Of a stretch of 64,000 bases of DNA, positions 3,001 to 22,200 are shown piece by piece. This stretch comes from Hydrolagus affinis (taxonomy: Eukaryota): positions 1-64,000 of the forward strand of contig JAAILG010000389.1 in assembly GCA_012026655.1 (NCBI GenBank), written 5' to 3'. Made by a program: the position numbers. Every line of letters starts with the position of its first letter. Position 1 is the first letter of the stretch.

Positions 3001-6000
3001 ACATATCAGCATGAACACCAAGTTTTAAGGATATAAAAATCTCATGTAAAACAATCTATAATTACTGAATACAGGTATTAGTATTAAATACCTAAATGTG
3101 AAAATACAGTCCATGCCACTTACTTGCACATTCAATTGTATTTTTTGTTTATCAAAACATACAGATGTTAGATCACCAGCTACCCCCTATCTCGAAAGCA
3201 CTCATTTTCTTTAATAAGATGTTTTGCTAAGTTTGTAATAAAGTTTTCTTAGTTGCAATAGTTGACTTTCATCAATTTAATGCCTTTGAGGTATTTTTTT
3301 TATTGCTTGTAAAACATGGTTGTATATGAACGGACTGAAACATATTTTGAATATCAATTAAATTTCAATGCAACATTTTTGCCACATAACAGTAAATTCC
3401 ATACATAGATGTAACCTTTTAAAAAAAAGTAAGCTACATTTGCTACAACATATGGAGAACTTTATCAGAATTAAAAATGAAATGGAAAAATCAAATACTT
3501 ATTTGCATAATTTTGATTGCAACAATATACACATATATTGTCACAACTCCGAAGCAAAACACCTTAATTGAAGTCTGTAATGCTAACAGGAACTGTTCCC
3601 ACACTATTTTAGATGTCATATAATTAGTACTTTTCCCACATCTCTTATCTCCAACTATGGTGGGAGCAGTCCACTGACAAAACATACTTCAAGTACAAAG
3701 TCATGCTTGTATAAAACTTTCTTACTAATGGCATAAAGGTGGGAAACAGTCACTTTTCAACTGAACAGCCCATTGACAACATCTCAGATCTCCCACAGTT
3801 AAACAACATGGACTGTATTATCAGTTAACTCTTTCAATTTAGCCCATAACTACATATTAAAACTGTAACTTACTGAAATGAATGACGGTGGACATTTGTA
3901 AAGCCACAATTTTAATGGCTAGTGAAGTTTTCGATCCAAATAACAAGTGTTGAAAAAACATTGGCAAGAATTTATACAAATGCTATATTTGAGAATGTTT
4001 TTCCTATTTAACCACACCACGTACCAGCAGGTGTTCTTAACTAGGCAACCATTTCATAAGTTGTTTCCTTACTGCAACAGTCGAATAAAGTGGACTGAAA
4101 ATAGCACTGAATACCTGAAGCCAGCTGCTTCATAATTCAGTTCTCAACACATATATTCAGGCAGTCTGATCTAAGATGTAGAAAATTACACTCGAAACAT
4201 GCCGCAGTGCAGAGTTCCAGATTTGTATGCGAATATTAGAAAGCACTGAACTGAAATTGAAGATGCAACCTGGCTTTCCAGTGTAACACTGACCGTTCAG
4301 AACTAGGTTGTGAGAAGCTGTCTGTTGAAATGTTTACAGAAGTGAATAAGGAAGTGGGTAACCAACACTTTAGTGTGATTCGCCATTAACTGATCCCTCT
4401 CCCCTGGGCGATGATGACCTGGACAAGCCTTTCTCTGTATTGTCAGAGCTGGAACTGCTCAGGCTGTGCTGATCGGCAGTGGTACTTGATGTCGCTGTGG
4501 CAGCAGGCGATGACCTGGTTTTCTCCTTAAAGTCTGTAATAATGACTGTCAGATCTCCTACAGTCACTTCCAAATGCTGCGCACTGCTTCGATCTATGTT
4601 TTTTAACCTTGGCCTAAAAAAAAGGAGACAAGAGGGGGAAAAAAACTAATTTGTGTGCACTTGAATAACCCGGCCATGCAAATGATTCCATAAATACAGG
4701 TGACACAGCAGGAATACGTAGATAGTGTAAGTCAGATAAATGAACTATGAATAATTTCTTGAGAAACAGCTTGATTAATGTAAGGAGAAGACAGATGGGT
4801 AGGTATTCAGGCTGGAATCAAATTGACTGAAGGGTCTCATTGATCCACATCCCTTGTGATATTTTGAAGTCATTAATTGTTTAATTTTCTATTCGGGTGG
4901 GGGATCTTTCCAAATCTTTCCATTTCATCCACAGCCAAGAGTTCAGAGTAAAGCAGATCTGGCTGAAAGTGTTTTATGATTCCTTGAGTGGATTCACAAT
5001 GGGCAGGTGAAGTCCACGATCAAATTTCAGCTGTATTGAACTCTGACTAACCATCAGGTATCGTATATCTGAAGCAGACTAGGTTGGAAAAGGAATCTCA
5101 TCGCTATGGCACAACACATTTGAAGTAGGGTCAATTAGTTTTCTCCCCTATGAATGAAACAGAGTAGTTCTACGAGGCAGGAGGCAACAATTCAAATTAC
5201 AAGTGTTGTCTTAAGAAATAGGTAAAGCAGCTCAGCAACAGCTATTTTGTGCTTGGTGCACAACTTTGGGTCTTTCAATACATTTCAAAGAATGTATGTA
5301 TAAGCTATAGAGCAGATCAAAGTCATTAACTGGCCCCTTTAAAACTGGATTGCGCATATAAAAACTGTTCTAGTCTGATCGATGCATTCAATTCATATTT
5401 GTTTTTGATATGCAAGATTAAGGTCAAAATATTACCTTGTTTTCTTGTGACTGTTCTTTTTACTAACAGATTCTTTCTCATTTCTTTCCTTTTCTCCCTT
5501 GTCTCTCTTTTCCTTCTTTGGTTGTGTGGGTGATGCAAATTGTTGTGTTACTTGCTGTGCCACCAACTGAGACACCGGGCGTGGCTTCCTATGAGGAAAA
5601 GGCAGAACAGTGATGTTTTACCATGCATTTCAGAAAAGGGGAAATATATTACTTTAATGCATAATAACTCTCTGCTGAAGATGTGTTCTACAATTGTTTT
5701 TTTTAAACCGAAAACAGATTGGAAACACTTTTTCTGAAAACAAGGCTACAGATGTCCAGCTCATGCATGATTTCGGAGTGCCGACTTAGGATCATAGAAA
5801 TTACAACACAGGAAGGGGCAATTTGGCTCACTGACTTTCTAAACTGGTGCCAATTCATCCATCGGAGCAAAGGATTTTAATTCCAATTCTCCGTTCTTTT
5901 AAACTAATCATAAGACAATTTAAACAATAACCCAGTTGCCATCCAGTTAAAATTAGTAGCGCTTTCTGCAAGAGGGATTAATTTGGAACATCTTTGGTAA

Positions 6001-19200: not shown

Positions 19201-22200
19201 CTTTAGAATAATTTCTGGACATTTATTAAAACCATCAATAAAGTTAAACTGAACTGTGGAGTTTTCCCCCACACCCATAAAGTGAAGCTTGAAGCTATTT
19301 TATACCTGTACAGAAATGCTGTTAAAGTTCTTAAAGGGTTATTATTATCTTCAAATGAAAGTAGATAAAACTGCAAGTTACCTTCTTTTCTGGCATTTCA
19401 ACAACTCTCCACTCATTCGCCTTCAGGTGATAAAGTTCATCAAACTTCATGCTGATGTCTTCAATGGAAAGCTGCAGCATATCCCAAAAGCCAGCCAGAT
19501 CTTGTGCAGTGGGTCGTGGGTTTGTATTTTGATTCTAGAGTAAAATCAATAGAAGAAAATGAAATGATTTCTCGTCTTGTTTCCTTCCCTTAAACTTGTC
19601 AGATAGCTTTTTTTAAAAAAAAATTAAGTGCTTGTGTTAGACTTCACCCGTCAAGTGTCCTTCAAAAATAAATCAACCCTTTGTGGCCACCTTCAAAAGC
19701 ATATTTTTTTTCTTCAGCCAACTAACTACAGTGCATAGCTTCACACAATGTTTTTTAGTATTCTATTTTACTTTGCTGAAGTCAGAGAAGGAGCAGGAAA
19801 TTCTGTGGGGCAACTTCATGAGTGTATTGACCTTGTTATAAAGTTACCATTGTTTTGTTTATCACAAGACTTCAGCTCTCTGAACTGCCTTAAAGCTCCT
19901 TAAAGCTGTCTGAAACCACCATCAATTCAATAGGAAACTGCTTTTTTTTATAGATAACAATTTCAAAGTAGGAATATGCATAAATCACAGAGACCCATCT
20001 CTGGTCAAACAAAGTATACTGATGGGATCAGTGAGAATAATAATCCTTGCATTTGATAGTGCCTTATCATGCCTTCAAGGTGTCTCAAAGCACTCCAGTG
20101 TATGCTGTAAAATGAATTGACTGTATATTTTGTGGGCAAAATGTGGTAGTCAATCGCACACAGTATTGTCCCACAAATTCTGTCGTGAAATGAATGACCA
20201 AATACTTATTTGGGAGGAGGGATTATCACCCCTGGAAAGCAGTGCAGCAATCGAATAAGCTGGTTCCTACGTACTGCTAGGTAAACAGGTGCGTATATGG
20301 AGTAAGGAAACTTGACTACGGTTTTGCCCTGCCCAGGAATTGAACCGCTTGAGAGGCCTAACCAGTACCCTACAGGTAGTAATTAACATAGAGTTTTACA
20401 ATGTCCCTTTCCCCTCCTCGCCTGTAAGGCACTCAAGGCATAATAGTTTTATGGTAATGAGAAGATCTGCAATTTTTATTGCTAACTCATCCATCACAAT
20501 TAGAAATTAAATTGCCAATTGCTATTTGCTCAAATGTATTGCTGAAAATAAGTACTTACCAGATTTTGCTCACAGAGACCATGGAATTGCTGGAATTTCT
20601 GAGACATCAAAAGCTGTGCACTTCCAATTGCACTCCGAATTTTTCCTAGGACTAAAGAAAAGGATAGTTATACACTTCCTGAATCATAAGATCATTGATC
20701 CGGATAAGAAGTCCAAAAGGAAAAGGTTTGTACTGGAATTTAACAAATCTATATCCAAATTGAAGTGCTCTGGGACACTAACCCATGTGAAGGCGCTATT
20801 TAAATGCAGGTTGTTGTAGAATATCTGTAACCACTCTCGTGAATCACTAGTCAAGAAAGCAAATTCAATTGCTATTTTTTGTAGTTATCCAGTTATTTAC
20901 AGTTGAAATGTGAACATTATATGCCACTTAATCCTTCAGTTCAAAATTATTTTCCAAACCAAGGCATTCCACTTTTTGTAGCTTTAATTTTCTCCTCCAG
21001 AAGCCCACCCTACAAACAGGAAGTGTAGACGAGGAACCGAAGGCAAGTGACACATACATCATTTTGATTCCCCTATTGGGGAAGTGATGCAGTTAATCTT
21101 AGTGGCCGCCCACAAATACAGTGAATTGATTTTATAGTATATTCTGTGAAGCACTTTGAGACATCTAGAAGATGTGAAAAGTGCTATATCAAATGCAAGG
21201 ATTATTATTATTGTTAGTGAAATGCCAGTGCCTATAAGGCAAGCTTTAAGAATTTTCCACAATCCTCAAAATAAATATTAAAAAGTTTTCACTTCGGGCT
21301 CAAAACACCACAATTATTTGATCTTGCAACATACTAAGACGCAGGAAAACAACAATACTTCTATCAGTATACCTTCTTCAGACAGATTATTTTCTTTGGT
21401 TTCTGTCTCCATCTGATGACACCATCCTTCCATTCTCTCCTTTTCTGCTTGTAACAGTTTTAAGAACCAAAAGCCATCCCGACGGCAGGAAGTTGCCTGC
21501 ACTGGCTCCACAGGTAGGTTATTTGTAGATTCTAACCATGGTTCGGGTGGGGGTAAAGAAGATGGGTCTAGAGCTGGGTCCAAATTGTCTCCATAAGCAA
21601 AAGCTTTATTTTTTGTCTGGGAACCTTTTGCGTGCTGTCGTAAAGCAGGTTCGGGGTTCGAAGCATTGTGATGCTGAGAAGAGTCTGAAAATTTATTAAT
21701 TTTGTCCTGGGATCCAGTGATTGAATTCCCACACTCTTGCGCATCAGAATCAATCTCTTGTTTTGAAGTCATGCTGCTAGAGCGGCCAGTCCTGTTCAAA
21801 TAATGAGAAGGTATAGAATTAATTAACTTATCTTTTAAAATTAGTTAATTATAAGGTTTGCCTATGAGTAAACTATCTTTACGAAAATCCTGATTGAAAT
21901 CATGGTGTAAAAGACCCTGTCAAAAATGTACAATATAATTTCAGACAGGTGAAAGTTTTAATACAAATGACCAATCTGGACTTTAAAAGCCGCCTTTAAC
22001 ACACTTAAAAATTCAGAAGCAATATTCATAAGTATACTCAGTTGTACAATCTGCTAAAATAGTTGTAGCTAGAATCCTTTTCTGGCGATCTTATTTGAAA
22101 CCTTCAGTGAACTCACAATAGAGGGAAATAACCAGAGCGAACACACTACAGTAAGTGGAGCCAAGTCCACTTGAAATGCATTTATGGTAGAATGTTCTGG

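What the first reader, a model, noticed from the sequence alone, without database searches (positions are those of the whole stretch)
4370..19534. 3'-truncated DLGAP4 runs into 5'-truncated YAF2 across a gapped L2 element
Seen: both genes are on the minus strand. DLGAP4 stops after its penultimate exon (19382) and YAF2 starts at its third exon (5588). The only discontinuity between them is the 100-N gap at 16099-16198, whose flanks are collinear L2 ORF2 (…LRLD | WLP…, roughly 45 codons apart in typical L2). Known: in human, DLGAP4 (chr20) and YAF2 (chr12) are unlinked. Inference: either two contigs were joined through different L2 copies or a large gap (most likely), or L2-L2 recombination really fused the loci. 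In the fusion case the phase-0 donor would read YAF2 out of frame, giving EATPGVSVGG...GRKGKK* (36 aa). That stop lies only 42 nt before the last junction, so it could escape NMD.
[Added by the scan's program, not by the reader: the finding's places include an assembly gap (unread letters, written N; its length is only estimated) at 16099 to 16198. Whether the letters on both sides are continuous or in frame is not known: test that first.]
Basis: partly seen in the sequence, partly recalled or inferred. Interest (0 to 1): 0.7.

Follow-up and report, generated by a model that had tools for sequence, protein, structure and literature searches.

The report
Scaffold gap falsely joins two genes
Two unrelated chimaera genes, DLGAP4 and YAF2, appear to run into each other only because two contigs meet at an unread gap inside a young repeat, so this is most likely an assembly join and not a gene fusion.

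Summary
Every detail of the observation checks out. A 100-N run (16099-16198) sits inside a plus-strand L2-like LINE. On one side, on the minus strand, is a DLGAP4 gene that stops at 19382 and lacks its last 72 residues. On the other side are only the last two coding exons of YAF2 (5588-5436, 4613-4370).

The two gap flanks are collinear ORF2 pieces. In 60 of 65 related proteins that match both pieces, the hole is exactly 45 residues (135 nt). The written 100 N is neither that length nor a multiple of three, so it is a placeholder, and neither continuity nor frame can be read from it.

The missing exons are nowhere in the window. The exons that are present are well conserved: YAF2 is 132/132 identical to Callorhinchus milii, and DLGAP4 is 486/508 identical with changes split evenly between the two lineages. 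Intact genes are therefore expected. In 5 of 5 elasmobranchs with data, the two genes lie on contigs of different length. Both L2 halves keep their CpGs (o/e 0.89 and 0.83, against 0.34 in the flanks), which marks a young, assembly-breaking family.

Best reading: a repeat-mediated or unsized scaffold join (about 0.85). A real fusion is not excluded, because no reads or assemblies could be searched, but it is unlikely (about 0.04).

The parts
4370..4613 (-). YAF2 last coding exon, including stop TAA at 4372-4370. It carries the Yaf2/RYBP C-terminal binding motif.
   Evidence: Acceptor and stop read. PF17219 at E 3.1e-19. 100% identical to C. milii YAF2 P0001 residues 102-182.
5436..5588 (-). 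YAF2 internal exon, the first YAF2 exon present in the window. Its acceptor needs two bases from an upstream exon.
   Evidence: 100% identical to P0001 residues 51-102. Read from its first base it gives 36 residues and then a stop.
5589..15714 (-). Part of the YAF2 intron on the left contig. It holds no YAF2 N-terminal exon and no CpG island.
   Evidence: tblastn with YAF2 N-terminal pieces found nothing credible. The CpG-island scan flags only the L2 here. The zinc-finger pattern is absent.
15715..16098 (+). Left part of a 5'-truncated L2-like LINE ORF2. It ends on a complete codon at the gap.
   Evidence: Matches residues 791-918 of a 1066-residue RT/endonuclease relative. CpG o/e 0.89 over 15697-16098.
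16099..16198 (.). Assembly gap of exactly 100 N. The length is nominal.
   Evidence: Relatives have 45 residues (135 nt) between the two flank matches in 60 of 65 cases.
16199..16657 (+). Right part of the L2-like ORF2 up to its C-terminus, a 3' untranslated piece, and the (TTG)n tail at about 16640-16657.
   Evidence: Matches residues 964-1064 of 1066. Tail read. CpG o/e 0.83.
16658..19381 (-). Intron sequence downstream of the last DLGAP4 exon present. It holds no terminal DLGAP4 exon.
   Evidence: tblastn with the last 72 residues of P0122 gives a best E of 0.82, elsewhere and on the plus strand. No ...TRL-stop pattern.
19382..19534 (-). DLGAP4 exon, the last one present. Its donor is phase 0.
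   Evidence: GKAP PF03359 profile positions 222-272 of 344. Corresponds to P0122 residues up to 904 of 976.
20560..20652 (-). DLGAP4 exon.
   Evidence: GKAP profile 191-221, E 3.2e-15. 30/31 identical to P0122.
21368..21793 (-). DLGAP4 exon.
   Evidence: GKAP profile 44-192, E 1.4e-38. Aligned.
22282..22377 (-). DLGAP4 exon.
   Evidence: GKAP profile 12-42, E 1.9e-4, 21.5 bits, which is below Pfam's cut-off of 27. Aligned to P0122.
23592..23957 (-). DLGAP4 exon.
   Evidence: 119/122 identical to P0122.
59382..59612 (-). DLGAP4 exon.
60313..60483 (-). DLGAP4 exon, the most upstream one found. P0122 residues 1-398 are not in the window.
63291..63390 (.). Second gap, also exactly 100 N, in a DLGAP4 intron. 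A run of G borders it on the right.

Best explanation
The DLGAP4-to-YAF2 junction is a product of assembly, not of biology.

Two contigs are written next to each other with a fixed 100-N placeholder. One ends at 16098 and carries the 3' end of YAF2. The other starts at 16199 and carries DLGAP4 without its last coding exon. Each contig stops inside a copy of the same young, CpG-rich L2-like LINE, at the point where such copies are hard to assemble.

The join was most likely made through two different L2 copies, one in a YAF2 intron and one in the last DLGAP4 intron. Read pairs or links from repeated sequence would give that result.

The true continuation of each contig lies elsewhere in the genome. 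For the left contig that is the rest of its L2, the rest of the YAF2 intron and the YAF2 5' exons. For the right contig it is the 5' part of its L2, the rest of the DLGAP4 intron, and the DLGAP4 terminal exon with its SHANK-binding tail.

Shown here: the anatomy, the collinearity of the flanks, the absence of the missing exons from the window, the conservation of the exons present, and non-synteny in other cartilaginous fishes. Inferred: that the join is false, and how it arose.
For: 1. The N run is exactly 100, as is the only other gap in the window. Relatives put 45 residues (135 nt) between the flanks in 60 of 65 cases. The written length is therefore a placeholder, and sequence continuity is not established.
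2. Both L2 halves have CpG o/e of 0.89 and 0.83, against 0.34 in the flanks and 0.64 in an older copy. Both have long open frames. This marks a young family whose near-identical copies break assemblies and attract false links.
3. The last 72 DLGAP4 residues and YAF2 residues 1-50 are not in the window. 135 nt of L2 cannot hold them.
4. That 72-residue tail is present in 9 of 9 chondrichthyan DLGAP4 proteins inspected and nearly identical among them. DLGAP binds the SHANK PDZ domain through its C-terminus (PMC5583998 passage).
5. The DLGAP4 exons present are constrained. 486 of 508 positions match C. milii. Of the 22 differences, 6 are derived in the window, 8 in C. milii, and 8 are ambiguous. 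There are no frameshifts or stops within the exons. The two YAF2 exons are 132/132 identical to C. milii proteins that carry the N-terminal zinc finger PF00641.
6. YAF2 and DLGAP4(-like) sit on contigs of different length in 5 of 5 elasmobranch species that have both rows. They are on 12q12 and 20q11.23 in human.
7. No protein carrying both domains appears among the 120 rows listed of 453 YAF2-exon hits, or the 120 listed of 835 DLGAP-exon hits.
Against: 1. Collinear halves of one repeat on either side of a gap are also what a correct join across a short unread stretch of a single L2 copy looks like.
2. The two halves look alike: 65% and 65% identity to the closest relative that spans both (P0243), and similar GC and CpG content. 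Nothing in the sequence shows that they are different copies.
3. The second gap borders a G run. This suggests that at least some 100-N gaps in this assembly hide only short, hard-to-read stretches.
4. The tests that could have shown one insertion were uninformative. For a target-site duplication, the longest shared word was 6 nt, reached by 697 of 2000 shuffles. For continuation of the older repeat across the L2, the right flank scored 29-43 against null maxima of 31-39.
5. No reads, no other contigs of this assembly and no chimaera genome could be searched, so the missing exons were not located.
Confidence: 0.85

Rival explanations
1. Order and orientation are right, but the gap is large. 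DLGAP4 and YAF2 would then be true tail-to-head neighbours in this chimaera. The DLGAP4 terminal exon, the intergenic DNA and the YAF2 5' exons would lie in unassembled or unplaced sequence hidden by the 100 N.
For: A fixed 100 N says nothing about size. Everything missing would fit in such a stretch. Both genes point the same way.
Against: The two contig ends would then be collinear pieces of the same ORF2, on the same strand and exactly 45 residues apart, by coincidence. The genes are on contigs of different length in 5 of 5 elasmobranchs and on different human chromosomes.
Confidence: 0.07
2. The junction is real. Recombination between two L2 copies, or a chimeric duplication, placed DLGAP4 without its last exon upstream of YAF2 without its first exons. 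The gap hides only about 135 nt of a hybrid L2. A read-through transcript would splice 19382 to 5588 and end after 36 out-of-frame residues.
For: The flanks are perfectly collinear. The two halves look alike in age and composition. The donor and acceptor are intact, and the frame arithmetic holds, with the stop 42 nt before the last junction.
Against: It would remove the conserved SHANK-binding tail and the YAF2 zinc finger from genes whose remaining exons show unrelaxed constraint. No target-site or flank continuity supports a single insertion. No protein with both domains was listed, though an out-of-frame product would not be found that way. False joins in repeats are far commoner than fixed fusions of two conserved genes; this is my own estimate, not computed.
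Confidence: 0.04
3. The window is from C. milii itself, and the DLGAP4 part is a second, recently duplicated DLGAP4 copy lying inside a very long YAF2 intron. The YAF2 5' exons would lie beyond the window.
For: The YAF2 exons are 100% identical to C. milii proteins, but the DLGAP4 exons are only 486/508 identical to the C. milii DLGAP4 records. Full-length C. milii YAF2 models exist on a 69,331,348-base contig.
Against: The differences are split evenly between the two lineages (6 against 8) and there are no stops or frameshifts. That fits orthologues in two species better than a decaying partial duplicate. With YAF2 changing far more slowly (6 of 132 positions differ from catshark), zero differences from a sister species is not surprising. 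The listed hits give no sign of two DLGAP4 loci in any chondrichthyan.
Confidence: 0.03

Closest known systems
Repeat-mediated scaffolding misjoin, or gap of unknown size written as 100 N
   Same: Contigs end inside a young interspersed repeat. The N run has a fixed length and occurs twice in 64 kb. Unrelated, truncated genes lie on either side.
   Different: The linkage evidence used by the assembler is not known to me. That 100 N means 'unknown size' in the AGP format is recalled, not taken from a call.
Chimeric genes made by LINE-LINE non-allelic recombination
   Same: Same-orientation copies of one LINE family sit in the introns of two genes. Splice sites on both sides are intact.
   Different: No continuous sequence crosses the junction. 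The reading frame is not kept, giving 36 residues and then a stop. There is no transcript evidence, and both genes look constrained.
DLGAP4 (SAPAP4) and YAF2 orthologues of Callorhinchus milii
   Same: The exons present match at 486/508 (DLGAP4) and 132/132 (YAF2).
   Different: The window lacks DLGAP4 residues 905-976 and YAF2 residues 1-50, both of which the C. milii proteins have.

Membership tests
DLGAP/SAPAP family (GKAP, PF03359); orthologue DLGAP4 | GKAP homology domain | tested here: met
   Four exons match profile positions 12-42, 44-192, 191-221 and 222-272 of 344. The first of these, at 21.5 bits, is below the cut-off of 27.
DLGAP/SAPAP family (GKAP, PF03359); orthologue DLGAP4 | Conserved C-terminal tail that binds the SHANK PDZ domain | tested here: not met
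   Profile positions 273-344 and the last 72 residues of P0122 are absent from the window. They are present in 9 of 9 chondrichthyan relatives. They are missing from the sequence held here, not shown to be missing from the animal.
DLGAP/SAPAP family (GKAP, PF03359); orthologue DLGAP4 | Closest named relatives are DLGAP4 and not DLGAP1-3 | tested here: met
   All named rows among the 120 listed are DLGAP4, DLGP4 or DLGAP4-like. The best are the C. milii records, at 92% over the open frame.
YAF2/RYBP family; orthologue YAF2 | Yaf2/RYBP C-terminal binding motif (PF17219) | tested here: met
   E 3.1e-19, profile positions 2-33 of 33.
YAF2/RYBP family; orthologue YAF2 | N-terminal RanBP2-type zinc finger (PF00641) | tested here: not met
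   No zinc-finger pattern in any of the six frames and no tblastn match to residues 1-80. It is present in C. milii P0001 and P0002. It is missing from the window, not shown to be missing from the animal.
L2-clade non-LTR retrotransposon | ORF2 with apurinic-type endonuclease and reverse transcriptase | tested here: met
   The window pieces lie C-terminal to the RT domain and match no Pfam family themselves. Of 7 relatives tested, 7 have RVT_1 and 6 have Exo_endo_phos. The pieces map to residues 791-918 and 964-1064 of 1066.
L2-clade non-LTR retrotransposon | Assignment to the L2 clade and not to CR1, Rex or another clade | not testable with these tools
No repeat library was available and the relatives are unnamed. 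The 3' tail is a short (TTG)n run.
Gene fusion / chimeric gene | Continuous genomic sequence across the junction | tested here: not met
   The only link is a 100-N run.
Gene fusion / chimeric gene | Reading frame kept across the new splice | tested here: not met
   A phase-0 donor meets an acceptor that needs two bases. The exon read from its first base stops after 36 residues. The joined sequence itself was not built.
Gene fusion / chimeric gene | Transcript or read support | not testable with these tools
   No reads or RNA-seq were available.

The most novel reading that the evidence does not exclude
A chimaera lineage, or the sequenced animal, really carries an L2-L2 recombination product that joins DLGAP4 without its SHANK-binding tail to the 3' half of YAF2. 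The result would be a DLGAP4 protein ending in 36 foreign residues, from a transcript that could escape nonsense-mediated decay.
Probability: 0.04. Interest if true: 0.5.

Novelty: not a real feature. Interest (0 to 1): 0.1.

Why it matters
If the join is false, the value is practical. This scaffold should be broken or flagged at 16099-16198. Gene models for DLGAP4 and YAF2 from this assembly will be truncated or chimeric. Synteny analyses would record a false DLGAP4-YAF2 adjacency. Only if the junction were real would it matter biologically, as a LINE-mediated fusion that truncates a postsynaptic scaffold protein and a Polycomb cofactor.

Tried and rejected
1. Target-site duplication around the L2. 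The longest word shared between 15640-15705 and 16640-16705 is 6 nt, and 697 of 2000 shuffles reach that. Uninformative.

2. Continuation of the older repeat that the L2 interrupts on the left.
- The left flank matches a diverged copy near 56.4 kb weakly (score 58, null maxima 27-36).
- The right flank matches nothing in the window (best 43, null maxima 31-39).
- The right flank scores only 29 against that 56.4 kb copy.
- Inconclusive. A positive result would have argued for true contiguity.

3. Comparing the two L2 halves by their identity to relatives (65/65, 52/53, 72/55). This cannot separate one copy from two copies of one family.

4. Measuring the gap from another copy in the window. The copy at 33489-33917 is 73% identical to the right half, but its upstream part is too decayed to align with the left half.

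5. The listing of cluster members for the C. milii DLGAP4 and YAF2 clusters. As a result, the chromosome of DLGAP4 in C. milii, and whether the window's own species is annotated, stay unknown.

6. A scan of 28 further open frames of at least 60 residues across the window against Pfam. None matched any family, so there is no third gene. ARAGORN found no tRNA. Tandem Repeats Finder found nothing in 14000-20000.

7. Literature. Six papers hold both gene names. I saw only the listing, and none is about linkage or fusion by its title. A search on misjoins and 100 Ns gave only general assembly papers, seen as a listing and not read.

Not done:
- The third protein search, structure prediction, complex prediction and the atlas were not used, because none bears on the question.
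- Genome contigs holds only bacteria and archaea and was not scanned.
- Paper supplements were not consulted.
- The spliced DLGAP4, YAF2 and fusion models were handled exon by exon, and the joined step was left out.

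
Full report
WHAT IS THERE

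The window has exactly two runs of N, at 16099-16198 and 63291-63390, each 100 long.

On the minus strand, above the first gap, lies a DLGAP4 gene. Seven exons, from 60483 down to 19382, align to residues 399-904 of the 976-residue Callorhinchus milii DLGAP4 record P0122. Four of them match the Pfam GKAP domain PF03359 contiguously, from profile position 12 to 272 of 344. The last exon present runs 19534..19382 and ends on a complete codon followed by GT.

Below the gap, also on the minus strand, lie two YAF2 exons: 5588..5436 and 4613..4373, with stop TAA at 4372-4370. The second carries the Yaf2/RYBP motif PF17219. Together they equal residues 51-182 of the 182-residue C. milii YAF2 isoform P0001, without a single difference.

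No other gene was found. 28 further open frames matched no Pfam family, and there are no tRNAs.

WHAT IS MISSING

The 72 residues that follow the exon ending at 19382 are present in 9 of 9 chondrichthyan DLGAP4 proteins inspected and nearly identical among them. They have no match anywhere in the window: the best E is 0.82, on the wrong strand.

The YAF2 N-terminal queries give a best E of 4.3 (C. milii residues 1-80, which include 1-50 with the RanBP2-type zinc finger and the extra exon of isoform P0002) and 1.4 (a shark query). The only lower value, 0.042, comes from a repeat-derived exon of one catshark isoform that hits three places.

The 10 kb between the YAF2 exon and the gap contains no CpG island other than the LINE itself, so no YAF2 promoter is in sight.

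THE GAP, TESTED FIRST AS ASKED

The gap lies inside a plus-strand, 5'-truncated LINE.

- The left flank (15715-16098) and the right flank (16199 onward) both match the C-terminal part of reverse-transcriptase/endonuclease ORF2 proteins.
- In a 1066-residue relative they cover residues 791-918 and 964-1064.
- A (TTG)n tail ends the element at about 16657.
- A search with the left piece returned 150 relatives. Of these, 65 also match the right piece. In 60 of those 65 the two matches are exactly 45 residues apart; the other five give 44, 32, 61, 234 and -162.

The left frame ends on a complete codon at 16098 and the right codon starts at 16199. 100 is not a multiple of three, and it is 35 bases short of the expected 135. 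The written length is a placeholder. Neither continuity nor frame across it can be known from the sequence.

WHICH ANIMAL

The best matches for both genes are from the elephant fish C. milii, so the window comes from a holocephalan.

The YAF2 exons are 132/132 identical to C. milii. The DLGAP4 exons differ at 22 of 508 positions. Polarised with seven elasmobranch proteins, 6 of these changes are on the window's side, 8 on the C. milii side, and 8 are ambiguous. There are no stops or frameshifts within the exons.

That pattern is what two orthologues under equal constraint look like. It fits a sister species better than a decaying duplicate. I did not try to identify the record.

WHY THE JOIN IS PROBABLY FALSE

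1. 135 nt of LINE cannot hold a terminal DLGAP4 exon, an intergenic region and the YAF2 5' exons. If the L2 is one copy, both genes are truly broken.
2. Both genes look healthy. The exons present are conserved. The missing DLGAP4 tail is the most conserved part of the protein. DLGAP binds the SHANK PDZ domain through its C-terminus, and the last 40 residues are highly conserved (PMC5583998, passages seen).
3. The two genes are not neighbours elsewhere.
   - In human, DLGAP4 is at 20q11.23 (PMC5583998, passage). YAF2 lies in a 12q12 interval with GXYLT1, ZCRB1, PPHLN1 and PRICKLE1 (PMC7019335, passages).
   - In the protein tables, the contig that carries YAF2 and the contig that carries DLGAP4(-like) differ in length in all 5 elasmobranch species that have both rows:
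     - Chiloscyllium plagiosum: 69,975,007 against 64,470,864
     - Stegostoma tigrinum: 63,455,393 against 62,290,513
     - Hemiscyllium ocellatum: 80,172,487 against 69,721,978
     - Leucoraja erinacea: 41,584,660 against 38,390,410
     - Narcine bancroftii: 107,671,741 against 254,621,664
   - This is a proxy taken from cluster tables, not a synteny map. For C. milii, only the YAF2 contig (69,331,348) is given.
4. Both L2 halves keep their CpGs: o/e 0.89 and 0.83, against 0.34 in the unique flanks and 0.64 in an older copy at 33.5 kb. Both have long open frames. This marks a young family. Such families are where contigs end and where links from repeated reads create false joins. A join made through two copies of one family would also produce collinear flanks.

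WHAT SPEAKS THE OTHER WAY

Collinear halves of one repeat around a gap are also the usual picture of a correct join over a short unread stretch. Nothing in the sequence shows that the halves are different copies: they are 65% and 65% identical to the closest relative that spans both. The second gap borders a run of G, as if some 100-N gaps here hide only short, difficult stretches.

Two tests could have proved a single insertion, and both came out empty. No target-site duplication was found: the longest shared word is 6 nt, reached by 697 of 2000 shuffles. The older repeat interrupted on the left shows no detectable continuation on the right.

THE FUSION READING

If the junction were real, the phase-0 donor at 19382 would meet an acceptor at 5588 that expects two bases. 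Read from its first base, the exon gives 36 residues and then TGA at 5480-5478, which is 42 nt before the exon's donor at 5436/5435. That a stop this close to the last junction can escape nonsense-mediated decay is established knowledge, not tested here. The joined sequence was not built, and exons were searched one by one.

No protein with both domains appears among the 120 rows listed of 453 and of 835 hits. An out-of-frame product would not be found that way.

VERDICT

Rivals:
- True neighbours with a large hidden stretch: about 0.07. This needs the collinear flanks to be a coincidence.
- A real L2-mediated fusion: about 0.04.
- A second DLGAP4 copy inside a long YAF2 intron of C. milii itself: about 0.03.

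The weights rest partly on my own estimate of how common false joins in repeats are compared with fixed fusions of two conserved genes. That estimate was not computed.

UNCHECKED

No reads, no other contigs of this assembly and no eukaryotic genome collection were available. Paper supplements and the closed collections were not consulted. Six papers hold both gene names, and none is about linkage by its title (listing only).

Noticed in passing
window 37201-38800: The only CpG-island-like stretch outside the LINE copies (GC up to 0.62, CpG o/e up to 1.1). It lies in the 35-kb DLGAP4 intron between the exons at 24 kb and 59 kb. It could be an internal promoter for the short DLGAP4 isoforms of 322-512 residues seen in relatives.
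   Followed up: no
window 63291-63390: A second gap of exactly 100 N, in a DLGAP4 intron. The left flank ends in a C-rich, A-rich stretch and the right flank starts with a run of nine G. It looks like a drop-out at a homopolymer and not a break in a repeat.
   Followed up: partly
window 19382-60483 (DLGAP4 exons) against 4373-5588 (YAF2 exons): The YAF2 exons are 132/132 identical to C. milii proteins, but the DLGAP4 exons differ from the C. milii records at 22 of 508 positions, split 6 to 8 between the lineages. The likely cause is another holocephalan species with a very slowly changing YAF2. A second DLGAP4 locus in C. milii is not excluded.
   Followed up: partly
window 15540-15690, 56380-56500, about 35960-36050: An older interspersed repeat abuts the 5' end of the L2 copy. 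It has weak, diverged copies elsewhere in the window (scores 58 and 48 against null maxima of 27-36). Its family was not identified.
   Followed up: partly
window 15081-15134, 6521-6583, 43285-43332: Three places weakly match (E 0.04-0.15) a stretch of an N-terminally extended Scyliorhinus torazame YAF2 isoform, P0016 residues 97-117. This looks like an exonised repeat in that catshark gene model, not YAF2 sequence.
   Followed up: no
window 212-457, 2147-2332, 8611-8781, 33489-33889, 41694-41777, 48586-48873, 49709-50023: Seven further fragments resemble the C-terminal part of the same LINE ORF2. Five are on the plus strand, antisense to both genes, and two are on the minus strand.
   Followed up: no
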